The position numbers were made by a program, and so were the translations under genes. Source: a virus (lineage: Duplodnaviria; Caudoviricetes). Taken from it: a stretch of 62,669 bases of DNA. Positions 33,408-62,228 of this stretch are shown here, piece by piece (position 1 is the first letter of the stretch; every line of letters starts with the position of its first letter). The notes beneath the pieces were generated by a model that did not search any database, had not been told where the DNA came from, and saw nothing but the letters and a program-made list of their open reading frames with translations. The stretch is from the IMG/VR virus record IMGVR_UViG_3300023184_000123, positions 1 to 62,669 of that record; one strand, given 5' to 3'.

Positions 33408-33880
33408 CCTGCGTTCCAAATCTCCTTAAAGCCTTCTTGTTCGGTGGGTTCTTCCCAGCTGGCAATCATGCTGGCAACCACATGGTCTGGAATTTCTTTC
33501 CCAGGCCGACTCATCAAACGCCGCACAAGTTCTTTATGTTCAGGTGTACGAAACACCACAGCAATATGTTCGTAGTCAGGCAGCATATGGAACTTACGAG
33601 CACGACTTTTAACTGTGGTACTGGTTTGATCCCAAATTATAGTATGACCGTGCTCACGTGCAAACACAACTTGTTCAACCATTAAGTCAATGGCTGTGGG
33701 CATGTAGTCTACAAACACTTCACTATAGGTCTTACCTTGTGCTCTTGCATAATCTTCCACAAATGCGTCTGTATTAACTATGGTCAACCCCAACGCCCAC
33801 TCTTGATTTTTAACCCATGTACTTTTACCTGATGCAGGCACGCCAATTAGTTGATAGCATTTTGGCATTTTAATCACCAC
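33404..33880 (-). CDS. Polynucleotide kinase-like P-loop protein (AAA_33)
   Basis: GVPASGKST, NTD, WDQT...R, R...R...IP. Confidence 0.85.
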   Translation of the reverse strand: MVIKMPKCYQLIGVPASGKSTWVKNQEWALGLTIVNTDAFVEDYARAQGKTYSEVFVDYMPTAIDLMVEQVVFAREHGHTIIWDQTSTTVKSRARKFHMLPDYEHIAVVFRTPEHKELVRRLMSRPGKEIPDHVVASMIASWEEPTEQEGFKEIWNAG

Positions 33881-34898: not shown

Positions 34899-34899
34899 G

Positions 34900-35127
34900 T
34901 TATGTTCTCTCTTTTTTAACGCGACCAATTCGGCTCGCTTTGTTCCAATCATAGGCAATGCCATCTGGGCACAGGCCATCCTTTACTGTGTCAACGCCAA
35001 ATCTTCCAACAATTTCAAATTCACCTCCTTTGATAGAAACAAATTTATCAATCAATTTTGCATGTTCCATTGCGGAGTTCAAATCATCAAACTCTACTGC
35101 TACATTATTAAATATTACTTTGTACAT
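34900..35127 (-). CDS. Hypothetical protein, probably leaderless mRNA
   Basis: ATG lies 7 nt after the -10 box. Confidence 0.65.
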   Translation of the reverse strand: MYKVIFNNVAVEFDDLNSAMEHAKLIDKFVSIKGGEFEIVGRFGVDTVKDGLCPDGIAYDWNKASRIGRVKKERT

Positions 35128-37041: not shown

Positions 37042-37119
37042 TGGAACAACGGGAGGGATTTGAACCCCCGGTTTTCAGGATTTGCAATCCCGTGCATTGG
37101 ACCTCTCTGCCACCGTTGC
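37042..37119 (-). tRNA. tRNA-Cys(GCA)
   Basis: Cloverleaf, loop TTGCAAA, U73, CCA. Confidence 0.9.
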
Positions 37120-37869
37120 ATTAAATTTGCTCATATCAGCACAAGTGTACTTTTGGTACGAGTCTTTCAAGTTGTTGGGCATGGGAATTGTTTCAACAGG
37201 TACACCAAAACTTTTTGCCACATCCATAAAACTCATTGTGCGCCCAGTTCCCAAGTTCCACAAGCCACTAGGTGTATTATACAAGAAATCCAAGTGTGTG
37301 TCAACCAGTTTAGACACATGCACAAAGTCTCTTAGATAGTGTTCACTGCCTTCAAAAACTTGTATGCGTCCTTGTGTTTCAGCTTGGCGTTTGAATTGCA
37401 TAAACGGACTGGCTTGGTTGCCTTTGTGTTCTTCACCTTCAGGACCATACACATTAAAATAACGGAAACCTTGTACTACACTGCCGCTGGGATGATCTCG
37501 CACATAGCGTTCGAACAAGTATTTGCTCCATGCATAAGGAGTACGTGGATCCACAGGAGCATCTTCTCTAAATGTACTGGTTAACCCGTAAACACTTGCT
37601 GTACTTGCGTATTGGAAGTTAACTCCGTACGTTTTACAAGCATCATACAGCTGGCGACTGAAATCAAAGTTCTGTCGCAACACTTTATCTATATCTCTTT
37701 CAGTTGTGCTGCTGATGGCCCCAATATGTATAACCCAATCTTGTTCCATTACGCTGGGAAAATTACCGTCGCCCCAATCGTATGTACTCACAGTGTGTCC
37801 AGCAGACTCCAGTGCTGTCAGCACACGACTACCAATAAAACCTTTATGGCCTGTTAACAGTATGTTCAT
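37075..37869 (-). CDS. hldD: ADP-L-glycero-D-manno-heptose 6-epimerase-like
   Basis: TGHKGFIG, GAISSTTE, YASTASVYG, Y.WSK, RYFNVYGP, RDFVHV, YQKYTCAD. Confidence 0.85.
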   Translation of the reverse strand: MNILLTGHKGFIGSRVLTALESAGHTVSTYDWGDGNFPSVMEQDWVIHIGAISSTTERDIDKVLRQNFDFSRQLYDACKTYGVNFQYASTASVYGLTSTFREDAPVDPRTPYAWSKYLFERYVRDHPSGSVVQGFRYFNVYGPEGEEHKGNQASPFMQFKRQAETQGRIQVFEGSEHYLRDFVHVSKLVDTHLDFLYNTPSGLWNLGTGRTMSFMDVAKSFGVPVETIPMPNNLKDSYQKYTCADMSKFNATVAERSNARDCKS

Positions 37870-38225
37870 TTTTGATTGTCGCCTTTGCCCACACGATAGT
37901 TGTCTTCCACACTGTCTGCTGTGCTGACTTCGATAACTGTGCCTTCTTCAACGCATATCAACTGATGCGGCTCCAACGGTTTGTTTCGCCAAGTGTCGCC
38001 GGGTTTGAGCACAGTAGTTGTTTGATCAGCATTTGCAGTTTCAATACTGGTCACAGTGAACAAACCGTCCAACACATACCAGGTTTCGTCTTTGACAGCA
38101 TGAAAGTGCATGCTGAACTTGGCGCCCGTGTTGAACTTCATAAGTTTGCCACAGTAGTGTTCGTTGGTGGCCCAGATCAATTCGTGGCCCCAGCCTTTTG
38201 GTACTAACCCTGATAATTGTGTCAT
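37866..38225 (-). CDS. Cupin (sugar isomerase-like) protein
   Basis: KGWG.E, SMHFH..KDETWY, PHQL, EVST. Confidence 0.8.
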   Translation of the reverse strand: MTQLSGLVPKGWGHELIWATNEHYCGKLMKFNTGAKFSMHFHAVKDETWYVLDGLFTVTSIETANADQTTTVLKPGDTWRNKPLEPHQLICVEEGTVIEVSTADSVEDNYRVGKGDNQK

Positions 38226-38983
38226 CCTATTTCCTCTAGTGTTGGAGCATAAACTCCCAAATGTTGCACAGTGACCGCACTCGCTGCATTGGCGAATGTA
38301 ATGGCTTTTTTGATATCTCCAGTGTCAAGATACTGGTAAGCTAATGCAGACAAAAAGGTATCACCTGCACCAGTCACATCCACCACTTCTACACTGGGCG
38401 CAGCAACATCTATATCATGATGAACAGCACTGGCGCCTCGACTGCCTCTAGTGACAATTAATCCGGTGCATTCACTTTTAATTCTGCTGTGTTCTAATTC
38501 GTTAATCTTTACCCAGGCACCCTGCATACGTGCTAGGTCTGTTTTCTTAGTGTCGATAAAGATAGGAATACTCAATGCAATCAGCTCTTCGATTAGTTCG
38601 TAGCTGACTGTGCCTTTGTTGTAGTCACTGATTACCACAGCATCGTACACATGGGGGATTGCAGTTTCAAATGTGATAGGCGTTGATTCAACATCCGAAT
38701 CAATACGAACAATCTGTTGTCGACTACGTTCGTCAAGGAGCCTAGTTTTGACACTGGTTTCACCATGCAAATAATTAACGTCACAGCCCAAGGCTTCTAA
38801 GTTGTTGGCCACATTACCAGCCATGCCAGCACGAGTTTCTGTGCGAGTAGGAACAAACACAGGAACAGGAGCTTCGGGGCTTAGTCTATCGATGGTACCA
38901 TACTGGTACACATCAGTACAGTTATCGCCTATTAGCAATATCTTGAATTGTGTTTGTTGTTGAGTATTCACCGACTCTGTCAT
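38222..38983 (-). CDS. Heptose-7-phosphate kinase-like (HldE/RfaE domain I, PfkB)
   Basis: RLSPEAPVPV, GMAGNVA.N, SDYNKG, DVTGAGDT. Confidence 0.9.
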   Translation of the reverse strand: MTESVNTQQQTQFKILLIGDNCTDVYQYGTIDRLSPEAPVPVFVPTRTETRAGMAGNVANNLEALGCDVNYLHGETSVKTRLLDERSRQQIVRIDSDVESTPITFETAIPHVYDAVVISDYNKGTVSYELIEELIALSIPIFIDTKKTDLARMQGAWVKINELEHSRIKSECTGLIVTRGSRGASAVHHDIDVAAPSVEVVDVTGAGDTFLSALAYQYLDTGDIKKAITFANAASAVTVQHLGVYAPTLEEIG

Positions 38984-39323
38984 AAAATATCACTTGATCA
39001 ACATGTTGTTGTGCCACTATACTTTTGCCCCGCCAGTCACTGCCCTTGACCATGATGTTGGGTTTGTACAGTTTAATTAAATCCACTAACTCTTCACGTG
39101 TGTTAAAGATCTCAACATGGTCTACACATTTTAAACTGTTCAGCATGAACTGTCTATCAGTTTGAGTGTTTATGGGACGAGTAGCACCTTTGAGTTCTTT
39201 CACACGAGCGTCGGAATCTATACAAACCAAAAGATAGTCACCTTGACTTTTTGCATAGTGCAACATTTCTAAATGTCCACGATGCAAGATATCAAATGTT
39301 CCGTTTACAATTACTTTGGTCAT
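38922..39323 (-). CDS. Heptose-1-phosphate adenylyltransferase-like (HldE domain II)
   Basis: NGTFDILHRGH, KG..RPIN, KGSDW, YSTT. Confidence 0.9.
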   Translation of the reverse strand: MTKVIVNGTFDILHRGHLEMLHYAKSQGDYLLVCIDSDARVKELKGATRPINTQTDRQFMLNSLKCVDHVEIFNTREELVDLIKLYKPNIMVKGSDWRGKSIVAQQHVDQVIFYDRVGEYSTTNTIQDIANRR

Positions 39324-39777: not shown

Positions 39778-40854
39778 CTATCCAATAATTTTTAAAACTT
39801 CTAAAAACGTATCTTTATAGGATACATTTCGTTTTTCATCCAGCATTTCCATATTTTCAATAAGTTTTTGAAATTTGCCCGGAACTTCAGGATGAGATTT
39901 TAACAAACGAGTTATAATATGATCAGTTCCAAACTTGTCTTCAATATGCTTTCTCAATTGTAACGGAGTAGCATCTATGCCCCATGTACCAAAGCATGGA
40001 CTAACTTGCAATCCAGAAAACTCATTGCTTCTGCTAGGCCATGATCTTTTTGAATGCCACGTTTCTAATTCTTTAAAATAAAAGATATTCATGGGATTAG
40101 CTGTAAACTGTATGTAAAAGCCCAGCTTGTCTTTTAATATACTATCATAGTGTAGCATGTTATGCTCTACTTTCTTCCAACTCAGTGGCCAACGTATGTA
40201 ATCAAACTGCTCATTCATTCCATCTATGCTGAATGCAAGATCGACCTGTTTAAATGTTGACCATAATTCTATTAATTCAGAATCTGGCAAAATACTACCG
40301 TTTGTGTTATAGAACACTTCTACATTTGACGGGGTAGTTACACGTTTCAAAAAATCTACATTGTGTTCACTGAGTAATGGTTCTCCACCCACAAAATCCA
40401 AACGGGTAAGTTTATCAAAGTTAGTAAAAGATATTAACTTTTGATATTGAAGCGAATAATTTTTTAATTTAGCATTAGGGTTATTTTGTTTCTGCCAAAG
40501 ACTACTAGAATGCGGCCCACAGATTGTACATGCCGCATTACATGTTAAATCGATCTGTACCGCAATGTGGTACATATCACCGTCCACTGCATCTTCTGGT
40601 ATAGAAGTTTTGGCAACTTGTCTATGACTGACTCCGTATTGGTTTTGCTCGCGTCCAAGACACTCATGGCAATTTTTTTCAGTATCGGAAAGTACATTTT
40701 TTGTAAACTGTCGTCTAACTGAAGTTAGTTGTATTTTATGTTCTATAGGCGTGGTACTTGGAGCAATCCAACAGCATGGCTGATACACAATGTTGCCATC
40801 TTTTTCAAGGAAACGAAAAGAGTTACTTAGTTTTCTACAAAATTCATTGGCCAT
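39778..40854 (-). CDS. Radical SAM/twitch domain protein
   Basis: PCC, CHEC, CNAACTIC, GGEP. Confidence 0.9.
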   Translation of the reverse strand: MANEFCRKLSNSFRFLEKDGNIVYQPCCWIAPSTTPIEHKIQLTSVRRQFTKNVLSDTEKNCHECLGREQNQYGVSHRQVAKTSIPEDAVDGDMYHIAVQIDLTCNAACTICGPHSSSLWQKQNNPNAKLKNYSLQYQKLISFTNFDKLTRLDFVGGEPLLSEHNVDFLKRVTTPSNVEVFYNTNGSILPDSELIELWSTFKQVDLAFSIDGMNEQFDYIRWPLSWKKVEHNMLHYDSILKDKLGFYIQFTANPMNIFYFKELETWHSKRSWPSRSNEFSGLQVSPCFGTWGIDATPLQLRKHIEDKFGTDHIITRLLKSHPEVPGKFQKLIENMEMLDEKRNVSYKDTFLEVLKIIG

Positions 40855-41569: not shown

Positions 41570-42613
41570 TTAATTTATCTGTTTGATGTGTATGATATTA
41601 TTTTTCACAATAGAAATTGTGTCTCCTAAATCATAACCTTTAGTCATGTCATCAAACTGTTCTTTTTTAATGTTTATGGACTGACAACACACCACTGTGT
41701 TACATGGATAACCAATCTCTTCATACCGGTGTGCTTTGAGTCTTTGAATAAACACTCGTCTTGTTTCTGAATCGTGTATTTCCATCAGTGTGGATTCCAT
41801 CACATTGCCCAGCACAATGTCATTGTTGTCATCGTAGCAACAGGGATACAAGTCACCGTTGGGTGCAATAAAAACTTCTTTTTCCACACGCATTAACAAT
41901 GGGCAATCCAGTGTGGTTTGATCCACATTGATTCTGGCTCTGCCTGAAGTGATCAAACCACGTTCAGCCCATAAACCACTTTTACTGTGCTTGATAAAGA
42001 TGTCATCCGGCACAAATTTTCTAAGACTTTTCACAGTTTCTTCATATGTACTGAACGGAATCTTTCGCTTGTACTGATCCGGTTTGGTTTGCATAAACGC
42101 ATTCACACTTACAGTGTATTCAAACGCTGTCATCACATTAATAGAAAAATCAAATTTTGGATCATACACCGCACGTAGTTCTAAAAACTTTTTTACATTT
42201 TTAATAACGCCAGCATAGCTGATACCCTTGACAGCTTTGTAACTCTTGGCATCATGTCCATCAATATTGACCTGTATGCTACTGAGCAGCTTTTCTTCCA
42301 GCAAGGGTTTTGCTATCTTTGCTGACATTAGGCCAAAGTTGCTCAACAAGTTAAGTGCTGTGTTGGGTAACTTGGCTCGGATGTAGCGCACAATTTCCAA
42401 AAATTCAGGATGATACAATGCCTCGCCATTTTCGCTGAGATGTATCATTTTGATTGGATTTGGAAACGCAGGATCAGCTGCTTCGTCGATGATCTTCTTT
42501 ACCACATCAAACGGCATGTCAAAATTGTGTTTGGTGCCACGCGATGTGGGACACCAAATACAAGTGGCGTTACAGCGATTGGACAATGCTAGATTGATGC
42601 AATCAATTGACAT
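41570..42613 (-). CDS. Radical SAM/SPASM protein
   Basis: CNATCIWC, ENGEAL, NGDLYPCC. Confidence 0.9.
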   Translation of the reverse strand: MSIDCINLALSNRCNATCIWCPTSRGTKHNFDMPFDVVKKIIDEAADPAFPNPIKMIHLSENGEALYHPEFLEIVRYIRAKLPNTALNLLSNFGLMSAKIAKPLLEEKLLSSIQVNIDGHDAKSYKAVKGISYAGVIKNVKKFLELRAVYDPKFDFSINVMTAFEYTVSVNAFMQTKPDQYKRKIPFSTYEETVKSLRKFVPDDIFIKHSKSGLWAERGLITSGRARINVDQTTLDCPLLMRVEKEVFIAPNGDLYPCCYDDNNDIVLGNVMESTLMEIHDSETRRVFIQRLKAHRYEEIGYPCNTVVCCQSINIKKEQFDDMTKGYDLGDTISIVKNNIIHIKQIN

Positions 42614-44192: not shown

Positions 44193-44221
44193 ATTATACT
44201 TTATTTACCGACTGATGTCAA
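44193..44221 (-). promoter_or_regulatory. sigma70 promoter
   Basis: TTGACA-17-TATAAT. Confidence 0.8.
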
Positions 44222-45674
44222 TGGTGTTGATTCCTAACTTTTTATTTTTGTAAGATTCCACTCTTGTTTTCATAATTCTGGCGTCGTTTTCTTCCTCTGC
44301 ACACCGATTGAGTCTCGCCGTTAAATCTCCATCAATGCCATTTGATGAAATATTCCAGCAGTTCAATGTAAATCCGTTTTCTTTTTCATACAATTCTTTA
44401 TACATTTTTTTTTGTAGTTCGATTGCTTGATTTATATTCATAAATTTATTTTGCCAAGGCAGTACAGTGTTACTGACGCCGCCGCGCTGGCCGCTGGGAT
44501 TCCAGTTAATATCACTATCCTCCATCACAGTGTAACCATACTTTTTGTAATCTGCACTTAACTTAGACAGTGTATCAAACTCCCCGACTGGTATTTCTAA
44601 TGCAAATGGAATAAATGATTGTCCCCTCCAGTTTTCTTTCAGCCAGGAGATTGTGTTTTCCGTTTGTTGTACAGTATCCTCTGGCAATCCAATGATAAAA
44701 CTCATAGTTCCTCGATAACGTCCTTTGCTGGTAAAGTAGTTTTTAGCATCTATCAACCCTGCTTTGATCTTTTCAGGATCCATTCCTTTACCAACAACTT
44801 TAACTGACTCTTTATTAAAACTTTCTATACCATAAAGGTGGCCAAGAAACCCTAATCTAGACAATTCTTCTTTATCTTCTTTTCTAGATATCATCAAGTC
44901 TGCTCTAACAAATCCAGTAAACCAAGGTTTGAACGACATTAGCTGTGTTGCGTCGGCAAACTTGGTTATTTTTTCTGTTCGATCATTAAACGTTTCGTCT
45001 GCCACAAGATAGTTAGTAACACCAAATCTATCGTAAGCATCCATCAGTTGTGTGTAATAATCCGCGGCATCTCTACTGTAATCGCCCTTTACACCCAGTA
45101 CAGGAAAATTACAAAACGCACATTTAAATTTACAACCTCTGGCAAACTCAATGCCCAACCACTCATCAGGACGAATGAAATCTCGGTCTTGATACTTCAC
45201 CATCAAACTTTTCATTGGAAATGAAGGATACATTTCATTTCCGTTGATTAATTTTTTATTGAATATAGAAAACTTTGGAAGTTCGCCGTTGCTAAAAAGC
45301 CATTTCAGCAAAACTAACAAAGCATTCTCACCAAACCCTTGAATGTAATAATCTATACACTTCGATTTGAATTGCGGAGCAACTCCTGATCCTGATATTA
45401 TCACAACATCAGGGTATTCAACTTTTAACCATGCTGTAAAGTCTTCTAAGATTTCACTCCATAGTGAAAACATGTGGCTGAATCCTATAAACTTTGTGTT
45501 TTTATCAATTCTTGATCTAGCTAGATCTTTAAACTCTTCCGGAGTCCAATACATAGCATAATCAATAATTTCAACGTCCCAGTTGTGTTCTCTAAGACAG
45601 TGTGCTATTCTGTATGCACCCACGGTCCTTCCTAGTTTTTCAGTAGATACATTGAATATCAAACATTTATACAT
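44205..45674 (-). CDS. B12-binding-type (class B-like) radical SAM protein
   Basis: GAYRIAH.LR, EFARGCKFKCAFC, DETFND, GIESF, FIIGLP; start MYKCLIF. Confidence 0.85.
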   Translation of the reverse strand: MYKCLIFNVSTEKLGRTVGAYRIAHCLREHNWDVEIIDYAMYWTPEEFKDLARSRIDKNTKFIGFSHMFSLWSEILEDFTAWLKVEYPDVVIISGSGVAPQFKSKCIDYYIQGFGENALLVLLKWLFSNGELPKFSIFNKKLINGNEMYPSFPMKSLMVKYQDRDFIRPDEWLGIEFARGCKFKCAFCNFPVLGVKGDYSRDAADYYTQLMDAYDRFGVTNYLVADETFNDRTEKITKFADATQLMSFKPWFTGFVRADLMISRKEDKEELSRLGFLGHLYGIESFNKESVKVVGKGMDPEKIKAGLIDAKNYFTSKGRYRGTMSFIIGLPEDTVQQTENTISWLKENWRGQSFIPFALEIPVGEFDTLSKLSADYKKYGYTVMEDSDINWNPSGQRGGVSNTVLPWQNKFMNINQAIELQKKMYKELYEKENGFTLNCWNISSNGIDGDLTARLNRCAEEENDARIMKTRVESYKNKKLGINTIDISR

Positions 45675-45690
45675 CCTATATTTACATAAA

Positions 45691-45768
45691 TGGTACCCCA
45701 CCCCTGATTCGAACAGGGAGAACTTCTCCTTTTGAGAGAGATGACTTTACCAATTTGTCCAGTGGGGC
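45691..45768 (-). tRNA. tRNA-Leu(CAA), short variable arm
   Basis: Loop CTCAAAA. Confidence 0.85.
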
Positions 45769-45946
45769 ATAAATATTTTTGTGAAAACACACGATCACAT
45801 AACATCTCAAGGATTGTATTTTCATCTTTGTTTGTACCAAGGTGTGTGTTGCGTCATGGTACAAGATGTGTACGACAACACCTACTTTGAAATGCAGTAC
45901 TTCACTGATGTCAACAAAGCATTGCGCTATATCAACAATCTCTAAA

Positions 45947-46038
45947 TGGTACCAGCGGAGGGAATCAAACCCTCTCAAGAACGCTAATCTGGCGCTAAAA
46001 GTCTTATAAGGACTCTCTGACTGTCAAGTCTCGCTGGC
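45947..46038 (-). tRNA. Atypical tRNA-Ile(TAT)
   Basis: Loop CTTATAA; 4-nt D loop; long variable arm. Confidence 0.75.
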
Positions 46039-46045
46039 ATTGTTG

Positions 46046-46120
46046 TGGTCTCCTTGGCGGGAATCGAACCCACATTTACTCTTTAGGAGAGAGTGGTTCT
46101 ATCCATTGAACTACAAGGAG
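46046..46120 (-). tRNA. tRNA-Arg(CCT)
   Basis: Loop CTCCTAA. Confidence 0.9.
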
Positions 46121-46125
46121 ATGTT

Positions 46126-46201
46126 TGGAGCGGGTGATCGGGATCGAACCGACGACAATCACGTTGGCAACGTGGCGCTCTACCAACTGAGCTACACCCG
46201 C
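46126..46201 (-). tRNA. tRNA-Gly(GCC)
   Basis: Loop TTGCCAA. Confidence 0.95.
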
Positions 46202-46211
46202 ATAAAAGATA

Positions 46212-46456
46212 TTAGTAGAAAACACTAGAGGTTTTTGGTTCACGAGAGTGCAACTTGCCTACCCGGGCTTTACAGGCCCGCCTCATTTGTCTAGCAAACA
46301 TGGAGCACCTTTACTGCCCAATCCAGAATCTTTGACTGTAAATCATTATTCTTTCAACAGCTCGCATGCAGTTTATAACTACCTTTTCTCCGCAACGTTC
46401 CGTGTTACAAATACTTGTCTTTTCAGAATGCTTGTATGCTTTGTGTTTTCTACTAA
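46212..46456 (-). ncRNA. Candidate structured RNA with 14-bp closing stem
   Basis: TTAGTAGAAAACAC/GTGTTTTCTACTAA enclosing about 217 nt. Confidence 0.5.
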
Positions 46457-46521
46457 CAACTCTATTTAATAAAATGTCAAGTTGTTTACCGCACAACCTG
46501 ACAAAGCGGGGGTCTGTTGAA

Positions 46522-46734
46522 TTTGTAAGTAGTGCTACCACATTATAAGCACCATTCACCCGAATTAACAAGCTCGAGCGGGATTCGGTAAGTCACTTAG
46601 GATACTAGTCCAGTTTGTCTCCGTTTCAGACACCACCCTTGCGAGTGGTTGGGAGTTGAACCCATCACCTTCTACTGCTTCGGTCCTTCGAAGAAACCTA
46701 GACAGAATGACATTCTCTTGCTGACACTTACAAA
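46522..46734 (-). ncRNA. Candidate large structured RNA
   Basis: TTTGTAAGT/ACTTACAAA closing stem, T-loop-like GGGTTCAACTCCC, several hairpins. Confidence 0.55.
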
Positions 46735-46737
46735 ACT

Positions 46738-46827
46738 TGGAGGAAGAAGGAGGAATTGAACCCCGGCCAGCTAATGCCAACCGCCTGTTTTCCAAACAGG
46801 TGTAGTAACCATACTACCGCATCTTCC
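46738..46827 (-). tRNA. tRNA-Ser(GGA)
   Basis: Loop TTGGAAA, long variable arm. Confidence 0.85.
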
Positions 46828-46832
46828 ATGAT

Positions 46833-46908
46833 TGGTACACCCTGTTGGAATCGAACCAACTTCCACGGTTCTTCAAACCGCCGCTATGACCACATCAGCT
46901 AAAGGTGC
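46833..46908 (-). tRNA. tRNA-Phe(GAA)
   Basis: Loop TTGAAGA. Confidence 0.9.
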
Positions 46909-46915
46909 ATATACT

Positions 46916-46989
46916 TGGTAGTTCCTGAAAGAATTGAACTTTCATCTGCGCGATGTCAACGCACTGTTCTTCCATTAAACTAAGGAACT
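46916..46989 (-). tRNA. tRNA-Val(GAC)
   Basis: Loop TTGACAT. Confidence 0.85.
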
Positions 46990-47003
46990 AAAATCTACTT
47001 AGG

Positions 47004-47074
47004 GGTGACCACTGGGAATTGAACCCAGATAAGCGGAATCACAATCCACGACTTTACCATTAAGTTATGGCCAC
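47004..47074 (-). tRNA. tRNA-His(GTG), no encoded CCA
   Basis: Loop TTGTGAT; C73; flanked by a long inverted repeat. Confidence 0.85.
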
Positions 47075-47092
47075 ACCTAAGTAGATTAAAAT

Positions 47093-47167
47093 TGGTACCG
47101 CCAAAAGGAATCAAACCTCTATTCCCACGTTCGTAGCGTAGTGTATTATTCATTATACTATGGCGAT
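47093..47167 (-). tRNA. tRNA-Arg(ACG)
   Basis: Loop CTACGAA. Confidence 0.85.
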
Positions 47168-47172
47168 ATATT

Positions 47173-47250
47173 TGGCAGAGGAAGTGGGATTCGAACCCAC
47201 GATGACGATTTCAAAGACCGTTGCCTTAGGCCGGGCTAGGCGATTCCCCA
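47173..47250 (-). tRNA. tRNA-Gln(TTG)
   Basis: Loop CTTTGAA. Confidence 0.9.
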
Positions 47251-47256
47251 ACAATT

Positions 47257-47332
47257 TGGTAGTAACGGTGGGACTCGAACCCACGATAAACACCGTATGA
47301 AGGTGGTGCATTAGCCACTATGCTACGTTACC
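47257..47332 (-). tRNA. tRNA-Met/Ile2(CAT)
   Basis: Loop TTCATAC. Confidence 0.85.
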
Positions 47333-47461
47333 ATAGAAAAACACACTCGGCTCTCCTTACAACCTTGTTCCTGTCAATTCAGGATGAAACTGGATGAACC
47401 CAGAGGCTCCCCTTGGTTGTTTGTATCTGTCAATTCAGATTGAAAGTGTGTTTATCTATGG
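47331..47461 (-). ncRNA. Spacer hairpin RNA with two identical AATTGA-loop hairpins
   Basis: CCATAGA.AAACACACT closing stem; ATCTG-AATTGA-CAGAT and TCCTG-AATTGA-CAGGA. Confidence 0.6.
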
Positions 47462-47534
47462 TAGGACCGCTGGGACTCGAACCCAGAATTGGCAGATTAA
47501 AAGTCTGCTGTGATAACCATTTCACCACGATCCC
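47459..47534 (-). tRNA. tRNA-Lys(TTT)
   Basis: Loop CTTTTAA. Confidence 0.9.
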
Positions 47535-47538
47535 ATAT

Positions 47539-47614
47539 TGGTCCCTAGCGACAGATTCGAACTGTCACCTCATCGGTTAAGAGCCGAGTACGCTACCGTT
47601 AACGCCAGCTAGGG
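47539..47614 (-). tRNA. tRNA-Lys(CTT)
   Basis: Loop CTCTTAA. Confidence 0.85.
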
Positions 47615-47930
47615 TTAGTTGTATTAAATTGATTTAATGTGCCAACCCTAGACCAATACGGGATCTAGAGCGACACTAACGTTTAGCACGTTTCATGCTA
47701 TTCTCCTTTGTTGATATTACGCTTTTGTGCTTGGCGTTCTGATTTCCAGAACACTCGTTTCCAATCTTTCAAATGCTTCCACCATTGTGGACTGCGTGTT
47801 AGAATACCTTGTTGTTTATGTGCCATAAAGTGACCCCCTGTACTGACCACAAAGATCAGTCCATGCTAGAATCTCTTTTTCATTTAGCTTCATTGATTCA
47901 ATCCAAGACATAGATGTCTCCTTTATAAAA

Positions 47931-47987
47931 CAGGATGCTTATTTTTCAATTAAAAGTTGAATTTTTGAATTTGCTGTTCGCATCCTA
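47931..47987 (-). ncRNA. ACAGCAA-motif small RNA copy 4 (Lys-type anticodon loop)
   Basis: AGGATGC-GAACAGCAA...TTCAA-CTTTTAA-TTGAA...GCATCCT. Confidence 0.7.
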
Positions 47988-47991
47988 AAAT

Positions 47992-48065
47992 TGGTGCTCT
48001 AACGTAGAATCAAACTACGATTCCTGTCATACCAAGACAGTGTTCTATCATTAAACTATAAGAGC
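47992..48065 (-). tRNA. tRNA-Thr(GGT)
   Basis: Loop TTGGTAT. Confidence 0.85.
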
Positions 48066-48071
48066 AAAAAT

Positions 48072-48147
48072 TGGTCTCTCTGCTAGGATTCGAACCTAGA
48101 CCACACGGCCCCAAACCGTGTACGCAACCTGATAACGCTTCAAAGAG
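48072..48147 (-). tRNA. tRNA-Pro(TGG)
   Basis: CACGG-TTTGGGG-CCGTG. Confidence 0.85.
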
Positions 48148-48154
48148 ATAAAAT

Positions 48155-48229
48155 TGGTGGAGGCCGAGGGAATCGAACCCTTCTAGACAAGATGCTTGCA
48201 AGGCAACTCCGTAGCCCACTACTGCCCCC
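48155..48229 (-). tRNA. tRNA-Ala(TGC), reduced D arm
   Basis: G3:U70, loop CTTGCAA, D arm GTAG-TGGG-CTAC. Confidence 0.8.
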
Positions 48230-48301
48230 AATTAAAAAACACATTCACCCGAATGGACATTGTCACCTCCGCCTGCTGTCGGAAATGTGTTTGTTGATTG
48301 G
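48228..48301 (-). ncRNA. Spacer hairpin RNA
   Basis: CCAATCAACAAACACATT/AATGTGTTTTTTAATTGG imperfect closing stem. Confidence 0.5.
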
Positions 48302-48373
48302 TACTGTCGACGGGTATCGATCCCGCTTCTCCACCTTGAAAGGGTAGCGTCCTAGCCACTAGACGACAACAGT
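48299..48373 (-). tRNA. tRNA-Glu(TTC)
   Basis: Loop CTTTCAA. Confidence 0.85.
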
Positions 48374-48381
48374 GTAAAAAA

Positions 48382-48443
48382 CAGGATAGCATTTTTGGCT
48401 TTTTTTCAAGAAAAGGTTTTTAATGTTTGCTGTTGCTATCCTA
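48382..48443 (-). ncRNA. ACAGCAA-motif small RNA copy 5 (Ser-type anticodon loop)
   Basis: AGGATAGC-AACAGCAA...CTTTT-CTTGAAA-AAAAG...GCTATCCT. Confidence 0.7.
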
Positions 48444-48447
48444 AACT

Positions 48448-48521
48448 TGGTTCCCAGAGCAAGAATCGAACTTGCGAAGACCGGTTATCAGCCGATTATT
48501 ATACCATTTAATTATCCGGGA
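48448..48521 (-). tRNA. tRNA-Ile(GAT)
   Basis: Loop CTGATAA. Confidence 0.85.
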
Positions 48522-48526
48522 AAATT

Positions 48527-48601
48527 TGGCGGCTCCAAGGAGAATCGAACTCCTATTAATGGCGTGACAAGCCACCGTACTGACCATTATACTATGAAGC
48601 C
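48527..48601 (-). tRNA. tRNA-Asp(GTC)
   Basis: Loop TTGTCAC. Confidence 0.9.
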
Positions 48602-48607
48602 AAATTT

Positions 48608-48695
48608 TGGTGGATCTTGATGGAATCGAACCACTTGCCGCCACCCCACTTGTTAATGGCTACCGGGTTACAGCCGGCAATGGGGGACAAGATCC
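48608..48695 (-). tRNA. Atypical D-armless tRNA-Tyr(GTA)-like RNA
   Basis: GGATCTTG/CAAGATCC-ACCA, GCCGG-CTGTAAC-CCGGT, no D arm, long variable arm. Confidence 0.7.
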
Positions 48696-48719
48696 ATAAC
48701 ACACTGTTTCCAATGTGTA

Positions 48720-48794
48720 TATTAAAGCATACTGATAACGCCACTATGTGTACTGCACTGTGAGCACAGCCGTCCCTTTCAGTATGCTTTAATA
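48720..48794 (-). ncRNA. Spacer hairpin RNA with 16-bp closing stem
   Basis: TATTAAAGCATACTGA/TCAGTATGCTTTAATA. Confidence 0.5.
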
Positions 48795-49082
48795 TGACAG
48801 ATTTTTCGCTCTAGAAGAAGAGTTTCATCCTTGCCACCGCCCGTTTGCTCCGTGTTTATAGTGCAGAGCCAGGACCTCGTTTCCTGTATGTTCACACTTT
48901 GCGGTCTACAACTGCTCTTGAGCAGTCTCGCGCTTTCTAACAGCTTGACTATACATCTTTGCACGTTCTGTCTTTTCCAAAATCATCTTGCGAAAATCTT
49001 GTGGAGTCAGTGTATGCTCACGTGTAAAATCAGCTTCTTGTTTCTTCTTATCTGTTTCTGTCATTTTTCGTTTTCACAAAAC

Positions 49083-49113
49083 AAAAAACCCCAGGAGTTT
49101 TAATTCCCAGGGT
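49083..49113 (-). terminator. Attenuator terminator upstream of the tRNA array
   Basis: CCCTGGGA-ATTAAAAC-TCCTGGGG-TTTTTT; 5' arm overlaps antiterminator strand GGACCCT. Confidence 0.85.
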
Positions 49114-49141
49114 CCTTGAAGTTTGCGATGTAAGTTTTAAG

Positions 49142-49288
49142 TTACACTACAGTCCTCCGGACCCTTGAAATCTCTGGTGTGCGATCATATGATAGACTTC
49201 CGCCATTAATCGATAACCAAAAACAGGCTATTACGCCTGCCAATTTGGGCATCGTATTAAACAGCTGATGTTTAAAATTTGATTGCAT
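49142..49288 (-). CDS. Leader peptide (48 aa, contains all 20 amino acids)
   Basis: MQSNFKHQLFNTMPKLAGVIACFWLSINGGSLSYDRTPEISRVRRTVV*, between promoter and terminator. Confidence 0.75.
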   Translation of the reverse strand: MQSNFKHQLFNTMPKLAGVIACFWLSINGGSLSYDRTPEISRVRRTVV

Positions 49289-49347
49289 TTAGTTTCTCGT
49301 TTATCCTTTTGTTGCCAACAAGCACCATTGCCTGCTAACTAGTCCTA

Positions 49348-49376
49348 ATTATAGTGCCTTTCAGCACACTTGTCAA
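49348..49376 (-). promoter_or_regulatory. sigma70 promoter of the leader/tRNA array
   Basis: Perfect TTGACA-17-TATAAT. Confidence 0.85.
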
Positions 49377-49396
49377 CAACTTTTGAAATCTTTCTT

Positions 49397-49414
49397 TGTT
49401 GTATTTTCACAACA
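49397..49414. promoter_or_regulatory. Palindromic operator-like site
   Basis: TGTTGTA-TTTT-CACAACA, same offset from -35 as the 35183 copy. Confidence 0.6.
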
Positions 49415-49520
49415 CTGTCCGATGCCTTGTTTGCTGACTTGTTTGCTGACTTGTTTCTATTGTATATCTATTTAGTCTCCTTGTCAAGACCCATATGATA
49501 ATGTGGCGTTTTTACAACAT

Positions 49521-50381
49521 TTATTTTAGTCCCAGTTCTTTACGAATTTTTGTGGCACTGATGTCTGTAACGGCGTCATCAAATGTTTCCTCGCCATGAG
49601 TATATCCCACGCCACGGCCCCAACCAATGTGAACAATGTTGGGAACAACTTGTATTTCGTATTGCCCTTGATATATGGGATCTAAATCACGCCGGATAAA
49701 ACTTTTGACCTTTGCCACTTCAAATGGGTTTGATCCTTGCCACCCTTGCACATCACGCACTTGAATAACCACTTGTCCAGTTTTAGCTATCAGTCTTTCA
49801 AACAACGCACGATGTCCGTCATGCCACGGTTGCCAACGTCCCAACATTTGTACTGTTTCTCGTTGCCAATCAAATACAGGACGTCTACGATCAGCTAATA
49901 TATGCTCACCAATAAACTCAGCCCATTTTTCGCAATTTTGTTCTGTAACACGGAAATCATATTGTTCAGGGGGAATAAATGCTTTGTTGGTATCTTCGTA
50001 ACGGCCTTGTTTGATAGTGTCTACCCAGACGGTCCAGTCTGCTTTGAAGTTGTTGCGCATTTCAACCAACGGTGCAACAAAGTCACAAATTACAAATTCA
50101 CCTGTACACTCCACAGCAAACTGAAACATACGTAAACTTTGACGAATACGTCCTGCGTTTGAAAAATCCCAATCGTTGTGCTTTTTACGAACATCATCCG
50201 CATTGAACCAATCAACTCCTACCCGCATAAAACCAGGACCTGGTATACCTTCATAGGTCAGCACACGCTGAGGATTAATTTTCATCAAATCCCCGTTGGT
50301 TTCGAGATATTTTTTAAGTGCTTGAGCAAGGTATGTTTTACCTGCACCCGGCAATCCCATGATTAAAATACGTTTTGTCAT
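49521..50381 (-). CDS. Adenylylsulfate kinase-like domain fused to a nucleotidyltransferase-like domain
   Basis: GLPGAGKT, NADDVR, DFVAP; C-terminal GRWQPWHDGH and ISATKIR. Confidence 0.85.
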   Translation of the reverse strand: MTKRILIMGLPGAGKTYLAQALKKYLETNGDLMKINPQRVLTYEGIPGPGFMRVGVDWFNADDVRKKHNDWDFSNAGRIRQSLRMFQFAVECTGEFVICDFVAPLVEMRNNFKADWTVWVDTIKQGRYEDTNKAFIPPEQYDFRVTEQNCEKWAEFIGEHILADRRRPVFDWQRETVQMLGRWQPWHDGHRALFERLIAKTGQVVIQVRDVQGWQGSNPFEVAKVKSFIRRDLDPIYQGQYEIQVVPNIVHIGWGRGVGYTHGEETFDDAVTDISATKIRKELGLK

Positions 50382-61693: not shown

Positions 61694-61716
61694 CTAAAAA
61701 TGTCATTAATTTACTC

Positions 61717-61744
61717 AAAAGAAAAGCACCCGAAGGTGCTTTCT
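61717..61744 (-). terminator. Intrinsic terminator after tmRNA
   Basis: GAAAGCACC-TTCG-GGTGCTTTTCTTTT. Confidence 0.85.
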
Positions 61745-62152
61745 AGTTATTGGTTTACAAGGTGACTAACCCCGGAGTTGCGGTTTCTTAGGCCGCCATT
61801 TCCAATTCTGCTTCATTAGCAGCTGCCAATGTCACAGGAACTTGGAAATACTCGAATGTAGATGTTTTTGCATTTACGTTTATTTGCTTGATTTACAGTC
61901 ATCGCCTACTGAGTTGCCGTCTCTATTATCTCACCCTGTCGAAACCATGGCAGGCCCATCATAAGGAAACTTTTCGCCAGTAAGTGGTAAAGTCCGGAGT
62001 AATAACATATTCCCAGCCTGGACGAATATGTTCTGGGTGTATACTTTCTTTACCGTTACTATGTTTGAAAAATTTCATAAACTTCCTTATGGTGGACCTG
62101 GCGGGAGTCGAACCCGCGTCCAGAATGCCTTCACTTTGAAGGGATTACAACT
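61745..62152 (-). ncRNA. ssrA: Circularly permuted (two-piece) tmRNA
   Basis: Acceptor piece first (GACGCGGGTTCGACTCCCGCCAGGTCCACCA, ends 62090), then coding piece from 61957 (GGGCCTG...GGTTTCGAC) with G3:U70; tag AKTSTFEYFQVPVTLAAANEAELEMAA* at 61871..61788. Confidence 0.9.
61959..62078 (-). CDS. 39-aa ORF inside the tmRNA intervening segment
   Basis: AAGGA RBS; MKFFKHSNGKESIHPEHIRPGWEYVITPDFTTYWRKVSL*. Confidence 0.55.
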   Translation of the reverse strand: MKFFKHSNGKESIHPEHIRPGWEYVITPDFTTYWRKVSL

Positions 62153-62162
62153 ATTCTTTTAG

Positions 62163-62228
62163 TCAACGTTTCTTTTTGGTAGCACGGCGGGCCGCACGTT
62201 CCATTGGTGTTCTTTTCTTCTGTGCCAT
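62163..62228 (-). CDS. 21-aa very basic peptide
   Basis: GGAGAG RBS; MAQKKRTPMERAARRATKKKR*. Confidence 0.5.
   Translation of the reverse strand: MAQKKRTPMERAARRATKKKR

What the first reader, a model, noticed from the sequence alone, without database searches (positions are those of the whole stretch)
49083..49414. All-20-amino-acid leader peptide attenuator at the head of the tRNA array: candidate pan-tRNA depletion sensor
Seen: a perfect sigma70 promoter (49348-49376), a 48-codon ORF (49288-49142), an intrinsic terminator (49083-49113), then the tRNA array. Codons 42-48 form the 5' arm of a long hairpin (AGGGTCC/GGACCCT, GGAG/CTTC, TGTAGTGTAA/TTACATCGCA) whose 3' strand overlaps the terminator 5' arm, so the two structures are mutually exclusive. 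All 20 amino acids occur in the first 39 codons, just before the antiterminator. 36 of 48 codons are distinct, with synonymous variety (Leu CTG/TTG/TTA/CTA; Thr ACG/ACA/ACT; Ile ATA/ATT; Gln CAA/CAG; Pro CCC/CCA). Known: trp/his/pheS-type attenuators use runs of one amino acid. Inference: stalling at any starved codon, for example after host anticodon nucleases cut tRNAs, would free the antiterminator and switch on the phage tRNAs. Caveats: codon diversity alone is near the uniform-random expectation, and promoters at 44193, 43978 and 43213 can drive the distal tRNAs independently.
Basis: partly seen in the sequence, partly recalled or inferred. Interest (0 to 1): 0.93.

Follow-up and report, generated by a model that had tools for sequence, protein, structure and literature searches.

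The report
All-20-amino-acid leader attenuator before phage tRNAs
A family of uncultured giant freshwater phages places in front of its tRNA genes a tiny translated reading frame that nearly always contains all 20 amino acids and ends inside an RNA switch, which looks like a sensor that turns the viral tRNA genes on whenever translation of any codon slows down.

Summary
On the minus strand a 12/12 sigma-70 promoter, a 48-codon ORF (49288-49142), a long hairpin whose apex holds the stop codon, and an overlapping intrinsic terminator precede a small gene and then 20+ tRNA genes. I collected 109 distinct homologous elements from viral contigs by the terminator motif alone. All 109 keep an ATG ORF that ends 22-32 nt before the terminator, and 81 of 109 peptides contain all 20 amino acids. 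Controls gave 1.7-4.6%, and 2 of 67 for the neighbouring small protein. A second sample, found through the downstream gene, gave 34 of 38. Cys occurs exactly once in 87 of 106 peptides but at 24 different alignment columns, so its presence is selected and its position is not. The antiterminator and terminator covary, including joint changes of three arms. Folding with a ribosome mask switches from antiterminator to terminator 3-5 codons before the hairpin arm. Same-strand tRNA genes follow in 86 of 88 loci. The best reading is a trp-like, ribosome-dependent transcription attenuator whose leader samples every amino acid, giving demand-driven expression of phage tRNAs. Nothing has been tested at the bench, the trigger is unknown, and the Glu codon lies at the border of the sensing zone. 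Seven literature searches found no earlier description.

The parts
49459..49487 (-). Upstream promoter P2 (TTGACA-17-TACAAT, 11/12)
   Evidence: Tandem promoters about 100 nt apart recur in many homologs.
49348..49376 (-). Promoter P1 (TTGACA-17-TATAAT, 12/12)
   Evidence: A promoter of at least 10/12 lies within 250 nt upstream of the leader ATG in 104 of 105 elements.
49314..49339 (-). 5' UTR hairpin (GUUAGCAGGCA:UGCUUGUUGGC)
   Evidence: The core GCAATGGTGCT is conserved in L086. Its role was not studied.
49142..49288 (-). Leader ORF, 48 codons plus TAA, with all 20 amino acids by codon 39
   Evidence: Across the family this frame is open in 108 of 108 elements, against 8 and 0 for the other two frames.
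49222..49241 (-). Hairpin H1 inside the ORF (GGCAGGC:GCCUGUU, followed by U-run)
   Evidence: Possible RNA polymerase pause signal; not analysed across the family.
49172..49222 (-). Hairpin H2: the Trp-codon region (UUGGU..CGAU) pairs with the Asp-Arg-Thr-Pro codons (AUCG..ACCAG); candidate pause hairpin
   Evidence: -13.4 kcal/mol, z -2.47. It forms end to end in 65 of 79 distinct homologs. It explains the nucleotide-level conservation GAT-CGY-ACA-CCA-GAG.
49105..49177 (-). Antiterminator hairpin. The 5' arm is codons 38-48 plus the stop codon; the 3' arm is the terminator's 5' arm
   Evidence: There are 87 distinct interiors with median z -3.3. Covariation is shown.
49084..49117 (-). Intrinsic terminator (13-pair stem, 8-nt loop, U-run)
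   Evidence: It forms in 97 of 97 distinct sequences when the 5' arm is masked as by a ribosome at the stop codon.
48906..49064 (-). ORF2, a 52-aa two-helix protein of unknown function, first gene after the terminator
   Evidence: Present in 75 of 102 loci. AlphaFold2 pLDDT 90.9, no PDB match. No Pfam or PHROG family.
45691..48696 (-). Proximal block of the tRNA array: a tRNA-like sequence at 48696-48611, then 20 tRNAs from Asp to Leu-CAA. No 11-12/12 promoter was found between it and the leader

Best explanation
This is a ribosome-dependent (leader-peptide) transcription attenuator that gates a phage tRNA gene array.

Proposed mechanism:
1. Host sigma-70 RNA polymerase starts at P1 or P2.
2. 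The short leader ORF is translated while it is being transcribed.
3. If the ribosome runs through to the stop codon, which sits in the apex of the long hairpin, it covers the 5' arm of that hairpin. The 3' arm is then free to form the intrinsic terminator, and transcription stops before ORF2 and the tRNA genes.
4. If the ribosome lags or stalls anywhere in roughly the first 35-39 codons, or does not translate at all, the long hairpin forms first. It sequesters the terminator's 5' arm and the polymerase reads on into the tRNA genes.

The leader carries at least one codon for every one of the 20 amino acids, mostly as single copies of the rare ones. A shortage of any one aminoacyl-tRNA would therefore raise tRNA gene transcription, making the element a 20-input OR gate for translation capacity. 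Because the output is tRNA genes, the variable most usefully sensed is tRNA supply rather than amino-acid supply.

Shown here:
- the anatomy;
- conservation of the ORF;
- selection for the complete amino-acid set;
- covarying alternative structures;
- linkage to tRNA genes.

Inferred:
- that the ORF is translated;
- that termination responds to ribosome position;
- the physiological trigger.
For: ORF and translation:
- All 109 distinct elements, fetched by the terminator motif only, have an ATG ORF ending 22-32 nt before the terminator.
- The frame is open in 108 of 108, against 8 and 0 of 108 for the other two frames. Stop codons are TAA 97 and TAG 12.
- In 25 of 109, by my count of the list, the -10 box ends 1-10 nt before the ATG. 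That would make a leaderless mRNA starting at or near the AUG.
- The other elements have an A-rich upstream region. This phage's genes mostly lack a Shine-Dalgarno motif anyway (41 of 68).

All-20 set against controls:
- 81 of 109 elements hold all 20, which is 79 of 106 distinct peptides.
- Other 40-55 aa ORFs in the same loci: 42 of 2481. The 48-aa windows of long ORFs: 253 of 7268.
- Exact chance: 0.3% at 35 aa to 8% at 53 aa.
- The adjacent ORF2: 2 of 67.
- Non-redundant sets (no pair at or above 50% identity, 30-33 sequences): 14-16 hold all 20, against a column-shuffle mean of 2.3-2.8 and maximum of 9; 0 of 1000 shuffles reach the observed value.
- Cys occurs exactly once in 87 of 106 and is absent in 9 (Poisson expectation 38.6), over 24 alignment columns. 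His occurs once in 85 of 106, over 14 columns.
- Independent ascertainment through an ORF2 homolog: 34 of 38 distinct leaders hold all 20. Of 25 new ones, 22 do, including a 35-mer and a 38-mer. 22 of the 46 loci do not match my terminator pattern.
- All 20 lie wholly upstream of the hairpin arm in 70 of 102.

RNA switch:
- 87 distinct hairpin interiors have median z -3.3.
- The apical helix comes in 53 sequence variants and the second helix in 26.
- On alignment A3 the antiterminator is 79.1% paired, against 72.6% in shuffles (0 of 500 reach it) and 20-45% when the partner is slid. Sixty cells change on both sides, against 29.9.
- The terminator is 99.3% paired, with 3 pairs changed on both sides.
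- In loci outside my pattern the three arms change together: GGGUUCC:GGAACCC, and GGGGUUUCAUA:UAUGAAACCCC.
- The free-RNA MFE holds the antiterminator in 85 of 97. With the 5' arm masked to stop+10 the terminator forms in 97 of 97.
- The A-site scan switches at 4-5 codons before the arm, or at 3 codons with a shorter footprint.
- The stop-to-terminator spacing of about 24-29 nt fits published data that a ribosome at a stop codon no longer blocks a terminator beyond about 27 nt (PMC4824070, passages read).

Target:
- Same-strand tRNA genes lie within 1200 nt in 86 of 88 loci with enough sequence, and none lie on the opposite strand.
- The window's tRNAs cover all 20 amino acids.

Weak hint of expression:
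- Contigs of four metatranscriptome runs from four studies cover the leader, at higher contig depth than the ORF2 region (X16 about 138 against 3 or less; X18 121 against 0-7).
- Two contigs bridge the terminator.
Against: - There is no experiment: no Ribo-seq, Term-seq or reporter.
- The metatranscriptome data are assembled contigs. The tool itself warns that they cannot rank parts of a gene and may contain DNA.
- 28 of 109 leaders lack 1-3 amino acids, most often Cys, Phe, Val or Leu. Divergent singletons lack some more often: at 60% single-linkage clustering only 16 of 32 clusters are mostly all-20.
- A second, degenerate copy in one genome has 16 amino-acid kinds.
- In my thermodynamic ribosome-mask model the full set of 20 lies inside the antitermination zone in only 7 of 101 (long footprint) or 31 of 101 (short footprint). 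Glu is outside in 70 of 101 with the long footprint.
- Single codons give less leverage than the codon runs of classical attenuators.
- Without translation the model predicts read-through, the opposite of trp. A poorly translated leader would then simply be constitutively on.
- 29 of 93 loci have a promoter-like site of at least 10/12 between the terminator and the first tRNA. The window's distal tRNAs have their own perfect promoters.
- Trp and the Asp-Arg-Thr-Pro-Glu block are conserved at nucleotide level for RNA pairing. Five or six of the 20 residues are therefore held by structure, not by a need for those residues.
- dN/dS is 0.64 against 0.48 for ORF2, so the leader is only modestly more relaxed.
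Confidence: 0.65

Rival explanations
1. The element is a general transcription-translation coupling gauge. The attenuator works as described but reads overall ribosome availability or speed, for instance host shut-off, ribosome hibernation or ppGpp effects. The complete amino-acid set would then serve only to make the reading an unbiased average, or to give negative feedback from the phage's own tRNA supply, and would not detect single depleted tRNAs.
For: - The same structural evidence applies.
- Single codons are weak sensors compared with codon runs.
- Untranslated RNA is predicted to read through.
- Leaders avoid the codons that match the phage's GUN anticodons exactly: GAT 0.99, CAT 0.92 and TAT 0.94, against 0.59-0.63 in long ORFs. 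This suggests tuning of decoding speed.
Against: A pure coupling gauge needs no particular composition. Yet presence is selected without position: Cys once in 87 of 106 over 24 columns, and the column-shuffle test. That selection implies each amino acid matters individually.
Confidence: 0.17
2. The ORF is an ordinary small phage protein gene with its own terminator. The hairpin only stabilises the 3' end. The tRNA genes are expressed from leaky termination or from other promoters.
For: - The peptide family has conserved positions: His near residue 7, Trp in the middle, and Asp-Arg-Thr-Pro-Glu.
- dN/dS is below 1.
- 29 of 93 loci have promoter-like sites downstream of the terminator.
Against: - The conserved residues are conserved at synonymous sites too: GAT 69 of 69, and every one of the 53 Thr codons at that position is ACA. 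They pair with each other in RNA.
- Nothing about an ordinary protein explains all 20 residues in 35-53 aa with a wandering Cys and His. The real small protein next door has all 20 in 2 of 67.
- The stop codon position inside the hairpin and the three-arm covariation are not needed for a plain terminator.
- There is no Pfam or PHROG family.
Confidence: 0.08
3. The ORF is a nascent-peptide arrest leader of the TnaC/SecM kind. The conserved Trp and the Asp-Arg-Thr-Pro motif would stall the ribosome in response to a small molecule, and so control termination.
For: A Trp lies about 11 residues before an Asp-Arg-Thr-Pro motif close to the ORF end. This is reminiscent of TnaC, which I recall from memory and did not test.
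Against: - The motif is fixed at nucleotide level and pairs with the Trp-codon region.
- When the conserved Trp is lost, a Trp appears elsewhere.
- A stall at the motif would cover the arm and favour termination, not relief.
- It does not explain the all-20 set.
Confidence: 0.04
4. The ORF is a precursor peptide for the many radical-SAM enzymes encoded nearby (a RiPP), or the transcript is a non-coding small RNA and the ORF is incidental.
For: - The window has nine radical-SAM ORFs, three of them inside the tRNA array.
- The 271-nt transcript folds with z -5.77.
- The leader is abundant in RNA-library contigs.
Against: - The RiPP idea needs conserved core residues, but the single Cys sits in 24 different columns.
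- The small-RNA idea is contradicted by the frame being open in 108 of 108, against 8 and 0 of 108 for the other frames, and by in-frame indels throughout.
- No Rfam family reaches its threshold.
Confidence: 0.03

Closest known systems
trp / his / leu / pheA leader-peptide attenuators of enterobacteria (recalled from established knowledge)
   Same: All share a promoter-proximal short ORF and an intrinsic terminator before the regulated genes. All have an antiterminator whose 5' arm is covered by a ribosome that reaches the leader stop codon. All have an upstream hairpin that could pause the polymerase. The read-out is aminoacyl-tRNA supply through ribosome position.
   Different: The known ones have runs of one amino acid; this one has one or a few codons of each of the 20. 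The target here is tRNA genes in a virus, not a biosynthetic operon. No 1:2 pairing sequesters the antiterminator arm, so untranslated RNA is predicted to read through rather than terminate.
Multivalent attenuators (thr: Thr+Ile; ilvGMEDA/ilvBN: Leu, Val, Ile) (recalled)
   Same: One leader senses more than one amino acid.
   Different: They sense two or three related amino acids in runs, not the whole set.
pheST (pheM leader) attenuation and other controls of translation-apparatus genes (recalled)
   Same: Attenuation controls a component of the translation machinery in response to tRNA charging.
   Different: It uses a single amino acid (Phe), the target is a synthetase rather than tRNA genes, and it is cellular rather than viral.
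pyrBI / pyrE coupling attenuators (recalled; mentioned in PMC4824070, passages seen)
   Same: Termination depends on how closely the ribosome follows the polymerase.
   Different: There the ribosome physically blocks the terminator hairpin and the signal is nucleotide supply. Here the stop codon lies 24-29 nt before the terminator, and the ribosome blocks an antiterminator.
T-box riboswitches
   Same: They use antiterminator/terminator competition that reports tRNA charging and regulates translation-related genes.
   Different: A T-box binds one uncharged tRNA directly and needs no translation. No T-box or other Rfam family matched here.
Phage tRNA genes as counter-defence to tRNA-cleaving immunity (PARIS AriB, Schlafen-like nucleases, PrrC)
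   Same: This is the biological setting in which demand-driven tRNA expression would pay. Listings and abstract starts of PMC11464382, PMC12409363 and PMC13056530 say that viral tRNAs rescue infection from tRNA-cleaving systems.
   Different: Those papers, as far as the listings show, concern the tRNAs themselves and not any regulation of their transcription.

Membership tests
Leader-peptide (ribosome-mediated) transcription attenuators | Short ORF directly downstream of the promoter and upstream of the regulated genes | tested here: met
   The ORF is present in 109 of 109 elements. A promoter lies within 250 nt in 104 of 105.
Leader-peptide (ribosome-mediated) transcription attenuators | Intrinsic terminator between the leader and the regulated genes | tested here: met
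   Part of the terminator sequence was fixed by my search pattern. Loci found without the pattern also have one.
Leader-peptide (ribosome-mediated) transcription attenuators | Mutually exclusive antiterminator that shares a strand with the terminator and overlaps the end of the ORF | tested here: met
   (in silico folding and covariation only).
Leader-peptide (ribosome-mediated) transcription attenuators | Regulatory codons: a run or cluster of codons for the amino acid that is sensed | tested here: not met
   There are no runs. In the window His, Cys, Trp, Tyr, Asp and Glu are each single codons. Across the family Cys, His and Trp average 1.0-1.2 per peptide.
Leader-peptide (ribosome-mediated) transcription attenuators | Upstream 1:2 hairpin that pauses the polymerase and, without translation, lets the terminator form | tested here: inconclusive
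   Hairpin H2 exists in 65 of 79, but it does not sequester the antiterminator arm. Free RNA folds into the antiterminator in 85 of 97. Pausing cannot be tested here.
Leader-peptide (ribosome-mediated) transcription attenuators | Read-through responds to charged-tRNA supply | not testable with these tools
   This needs reporter or in vitro assays.
T-box riboswitch | Specifier loop and T-box sequence, matched by the Rfam model | tested here: not met
   cmscan of 48500-49700 at E up to 10 found no T-box. Only tRNA passed a gathering score.
Nascent-peptide arrest leaders (TnaC/SecM type) | Peptide motif conserved at amino-acid level irrespective of codon choice | tested here: not met
   Synonymous sites are fixed: GAT 69 of 69, all 53 Thr codons are ACA, and GAG 54 against GAA 3. 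The motif pairs with the Trp-codon region.
RiPP precursor peptide | Conserved core residues (for example Cys) at fixed positions next to the maturase | tested here: not met
   The single Cys lies in 24 different alignment columns.

The most novel reading that the evidence does not exclude
A virus carries a 20-channel translation-supply sensor. The leader is a near-minimal peptide, as short as 35 residues, that contains every amino acid. A shortage of any single aminoacyl-tRNA, for example after a host tRNA-cleaving defence fires or as host tRNAs decay late in infection, makes the ribosome lag, forms the antiterminator and switches on the phage's own complete tRNA set. Rising tRNA supply then shuts it off again. 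That would be demand-driven, self-limiting tRNA homeostasis encoded by a phage. It would also be the first attenuator whose selected property is the completeness of the amino-acid set rather than enrichment for one residue.
Probability: 0.5. Interest if true: 0.93.

Novelty: new variant of a known kind. Interest (0 to 1): 0.88.

Why it matters
- How phages regulate their tRNA genes is essentially unknown, while tRNA-targeting immunity and rescue by viral tRNAs are an active field (listings).
- A leader selected to contain all 20 amino acids would be a new design principle for attenuation: completeness of the set instead of runs of one residue.
- It would show that a virus monitors the whole decoding capacity of its host cell.
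- The element is small (about 230-300 nt). It uses consensus sigma-70 promoters and an intrinsic terminator, so it should work in E. coli extracts.
- The idea can therefore be tested directly with 20 drop-out reactions.
- If it works, the element could serve as a compact reporter of tRNA or amino-acid limitation.

Tried and rejected
- Anchoring on the neighbouring 286-aa kinase-like gene gave 596 relatives, but none of the 80 kept loci carries the leader or an adjacent tRNA array. The array's position varies between relatives, so this anchor was dropped.
- blastn of 48600-49600 against GenBank phages found nothing. tblastn of ORF2 found nothing. The kinase-like gene has only relatives of 39% identity or less among cultured phages.
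- Ralstonia phage RsoM2USA has 42 tRNA matches to the Rfam model, 40 of them over its cut-off. I screened the DNA around and upstream of its tRNA clusters, held as eleven overlapping stretches (L294-L304), for ORFs of 30-80 aa with at least 19 amino-acid kinds, and saw no leader-like unit. The screen was crude and terminators were not examined.
- Rfam gave no family for the leader.
- The terminator pattern in bacterial genomes gave 87 stretches, of which only one carries the full element: L274, a 6.2-kb contig binned as Polynucleobacter. That is a weak host hint or a binning error. The rest look like chance matches.
- ORF2 has no Pfam or PHROG family. Its ESM Atlas hits score 0.80 or less and carry no family. 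There is no PDB fold match.
I used a single ORF2 protein instead.
- dN/dS did not discriminate much.
- Codon use against the phage's anticodons gave no sign that leaders prefer codons matching phage tRNAs exactly; the bias runs the other way for His, Tyr and Asp.
- Metatranscriptome contigs: parts of the stretch without cover are not evidence of anything.
- Literature: searches found no description of an all-20 leader or of attenuation of phage tRNA arrays. I saw only listings and abstract starts, plus passages of PMC4824070. Subscription journals and supplements are not covered.
It was not used.
Full report
**What is in the window.** The window is a 62.7-kb fragment of an IMG/VR virus record, estimated 16% complete. 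Relatives are 340-345 kb, so this is a jumbo phage. Reading the minus strand from 49487 to 48601 gives the following parts:

- Two sigma-70 promoters: 49487-49459 (11/12) and 49376-49348 (12/12).
- A 5' hairpin at 49339-49314.
- A 48-codon ORF at 49288-49142.
- A long hairpin at 49177-49105 whose apical stem contains the TAA stop codon.
- An intrinsic terminator at 49117-49084 that shares the strand GGACCCU with the long hairpin.
- A 52-aa ORF at 49064-48906.
- About 200 nt, then a tRNA-like sequence.
- 36 tRNA genes covering all 20 amino acids.

The ORF has 36 distinct codons of 48, and the twentieth amino acid (Glu, GAG) arrives at codon 39. The 271-nt transcript is unusually structured, z -5.77.

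**Finding relatives.** The neighbouring kinase-like gene has hundreds of relatives, but none of the 80 kept loci has the tRNA array beside it. Searching two complete relatives with the DNA itself found the unit again, each time as promoter, a 43-aa ORF, hairpin, terminator and a homolog of the small gene.

From the four copies then in hand (the window, L086 and these two relatives) I wrote a pattern for the terminator only. With the loci fetched earlier these make 109 distinct elements. The pattern says nothing about the ORF, so the ORF's properties are not built in by the search.

**The ORF is real.**

- All 109 elements have an ATG-initiated ORF. Most are 43-53 codons. It ends 22-32 nt before the terminator motif.
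- Over the same span the other two frames are open in 8 and 0 of 108.
- Peptides differ by many in-frame insertions and deletions.
- Stop codons are TAA 97 and TAG 12.
- In 25 of 109, by my count of the list, the -10 hexamer ends 1-10 nt before the ATG. The transcript would then begin at or next to the AUG, which is a leaderless mRNA.
- In the rest the 5' UTR is 40-66 nt, with an A-rich stretch before the ATG. This phage's own long ORFs mostly lack a Shine-Dalgarno word too (41 of 68).

**The complete amino-acid set is selected.** Observed counts against four controls:

| Set | All 20 amino acids |
|---|---|
| Leader elements | 81 of 109 |
| Distinct leader peptides | 79 of 106 |
| Other 40-55 aa ORFs in the same loci | 42 of 2481 |
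| 48-aa windows of long ORFs | 253 of 7268 |
| Exact probability, phage amino-acid composition | 0.3% (35 aa), 4.6% (48 aa), 8.1% (53 aa) |
| Adjacent small protein ORF2 (mean 53 aa) | 2 of 67 |

The remaining leaders have 19 kinds (17 elements), 18 (7) or 17 (3). One more was truncated by my choice of ATG.

The family is homologous, so descent matters. I tested that in three ways.

1. In sets thinned so that no two peptides are 50% identical (30-33 sequences), 14-16 hold all 20. When residues are shuffled within alignment columns, which keeps every conserved position, the mean is 2.3-2.8 and the maximum 9. None of 1000 shuffles reaches the observed value.
2. The rare residues behave as "exactly one, anywhere". 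Cys occurs once in 87 of 106 and is absent in 9, where a Poisson model expects 38.6. The single Cys occupies 24 different alignment columns. His occurs once in 85 of 106, over 14 columns. Where the conserved Trp is lost, a Trp appears elsewhere.
3. An independent sample was drawn through a homolog of the downstream gene. It gave 46 loci, 22 of which do not match my terminator pattern. They hold 38 distinct leaders, and 34 of those have all 20. Of 25 leaders not seen before, 22 have all 20, including peptides of 35 and 38 residues.

Against this, single-linkage clusters at 60% identity are mostly all-20 in only 16 of 32. A degenerate second copy in one genome has 16 kinds.

**The RNA switch.**

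- The hairpin between GGGUCC and GGACCC has 87 distinct interiors. Median z is -3.3, and 95% are below -1.64.
- Its apical helix comes in 53 complementary sequence variants and its second helix in 26.
- On a 35-sequence alignment the antiterminator is 79.1% paired. Shuffles give 72.6% (0 of 500 reach the observed value) and slid partners 20-45%. It has twice the expected number of double changes.
- The terminator is 99.3% paired, with compensatory changes at three pairs. Part of it was fixed by my pattern.
- In loci found without the pattern, the 5' arm, the shared strand and the terminator's 3' arm change together: GGGUUCC:GGAACCC, and GGGGUUUCAUA:UAUGAAACCCC. Joint change of three arms is expected if the competition itself is selected.
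- The stop codon always lies 9-28 nt (mostly 21-28) into the hairpin.
- Median energies are -23.1 kcal/mol for the hairpin and -15.6 for the terminator.
- Free RNA folds into the antiterminator in 85 of 97 distinct sequences. With the 5' arm masked as under a ribosome at the stop codon, the terminator forms in 97 of 97.

**Scanning a ribosome footprint along the ORF.** The antiterminator is predicted while the A site is at least 5-6 codons before the arm. The terminator is predicted from 4 codons before the arm to the stop codon. With a shorter 3' boundary the switch moves to 3 codons.

The stop-to-terminator spacing is about 24-29 nt. Published measurements show that a ribosome at a stop codon stops interfering with a terminator beyond roughly 27 nt (PMC4824070, passages read).

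**A second hairpin inside the ORF.** The Trp-codon region pairs with the Asp-Arg-Thr-Pro codons (65 of 79; window -13.4 kcal/mol). This explains why those residues are conserved at synonymous sites. The hairpin sits where a pause hairpin would synchronise ribosome and polymerase. That role is inferred by analogy with trp and was not tested.

**What is controlled.**

- Same-strand tRNA genes start within 1200 nt in 86 of 88 loci with enough downstream sequence, and none lie on the other strand.
- tRNAs lie upstream as well in only 18 of 90 loci, so the unit usually heads the array.
- ORF2 intervenes in 75 of 102. It is a confidently predicted two-helix protein with no known relative.
- A promoter of at least 10/12 precedes the leader in 104 of 105. 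One lies between the terminator and the first tRNA in 29 of 93, or 15 of 93 at 11/12 or better.
- In the window no strong promoter lies between the leader and the first 20 tRNAs. Three perfect promoters drive distal tRNAs.

**Expression.** Four metatranscriptome runs from four studies hold the leader. Contig depth over the leader exceeds that over ORF2:

| Run | Leader depth | ORF2-region depth |
|---|---|---|
| X16 | about 138 | 3 or less |
| X18 | 121 | 0-7 |
| X15 | 8-12 | 5.5 |
| X17 | 10-17 | 5 |

Two contigs bridge the terminator. These are assembled contigs from libraries that may contain DNA, so this is a hint only.

**Mechanism and its weak points.** The anatomy matches a trp-type attenuator, with three differences:

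- single codons of all 20 amino acids instead of runs;
- tRNA genes as the target;
- predicted read-through when the leader is not translated.

The output suggests that tRNA supply, rather than amino-acid supply, is the useful signal. An RNA ligase and further RNA-related genes next to the array fit a phage that defends its tRNA pool. That link is circumstantial.

Weak points:

- There is no experiment.
- Glu and sometimes Asp lie at or beyond the predicted edge of the sensing zone. The full set is "sensed" in only 7-31 of 101 under my two footprint models, and at least 19 kinds in about half.
- A quarter of the leaders lack a residue.
- Some loci have extra promoters.

**Known or new.**

- Rfam has no model for the element.
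- No cultured phage in the GenBank collection carries it.
- RsoM2USA shows no analog in a crude screen.
- Only one of 87 pattern matches in bacterial genomes carries it.
- Seven full-text searches found no description. I saw listings and abstract starts only.

I file it as a new variant of leader-peptide attenuation. It meets three structural criteria of that class and fails the "run of regulatory codons" criterion.

**Verdict.** Confidence is 0.65 that this is a translation-dependent attenuator reading the supply of every aminoacyl-tRNA to gate phage tRNA genes. Interest is 0.88.

Noticed in passing
window 61697-62182 (-): ARAGORN calls a permuted (two-piece) tmRNA gene with tag peptide AAANEAELEMAA in this phage fragment.
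   Followed up: no
window 48611-48696 (-): A tRNA-like sequence between ORF2 and tRNA-Asp that ARAGORN missed. The Rfam tRNA-Sec model scores 25.2 bits, below its cut-off of 47. By my reading of the alignment the anticodon loop shows GUA with a long variable arm, so it may be a second tRNA-Tyr.
   Followed up: no
window 15650-15750 (-) and 45947-46038 (-): ARAGORN reports a 101-nt 'tRNA-???' with a four-base anticodon (tggg) and a 92-nt tRNA-Ile (tat). Both are unusual in length.
   Followed up: no
window 15785-26928, 39778-40854, 41570-42613, 44205-45701: There are nine radical-SAM ORFs in 62 kb. Six are in one block. Three lie between tRNA genes, one with a SPASM domain and one with a B12-binding domain. 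Their substrates are unknown.
   Followed up: partly
window 33870-34979 (-) and 35202-36614 (-): An RNA ligase (PF09414 plus the PHA02142 OB domain) and a DUF2828/DUF7788 protein lie just downstream of the tRNA array. This may be a tRNA-repair context.
   Followed up: partly
window 31687-32649 (-): This protein has an N-terminal Mtd_N domain (major tropism determinant). It could hint at a diversity-generating retroelement target; not examined.
   Followed up: no
leader ORFs of 101 elements (window 49288-49167 and homologs): Leaders use GAT 0.99, CAT 0.92 and TAT 0.94, against 0.63, 0.59 and 0.61 in the phages' long ORFs. They avoid NNT in four-codon boxes. They therefore avoid the codons that match the phage's GUN anticodons exactly. 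This may tune decoding speed; it is unexplained.
   Followed up: partly
L085 1330-1560 (second site in the 340-kb relative G003): A degenerate second copy lies before another tRNA sub-cluster. It has a -10 box abutting the ATG, a 35-aa ORF with only 16 amino-acid kinds, a weakened arm (GGAUCC) and a similar terminator.
   Followed up: partly
L274 (6.2-kb contig binned in a Polynucleobacter MAG): This is the only one of 87 bacterial-genome pattern matches that carries a complete element (48-aa leader, all 20). It is either a mis-binned phage contig or a weak hint at the host.
   Followed up: partly
window about 49425-49450 (-): A direct repeat of a 12-base unit, two copies, lies between the two promoters. 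I saw it by eye.
   Followed up: no
window 37075-39323 (-): Sugar-nucleotide genes (epimerase/dehydratase, cupin, PfkB kinase, cytidylyltransferase) are interleaved with the distal tRNA genes.
   Followed up: no
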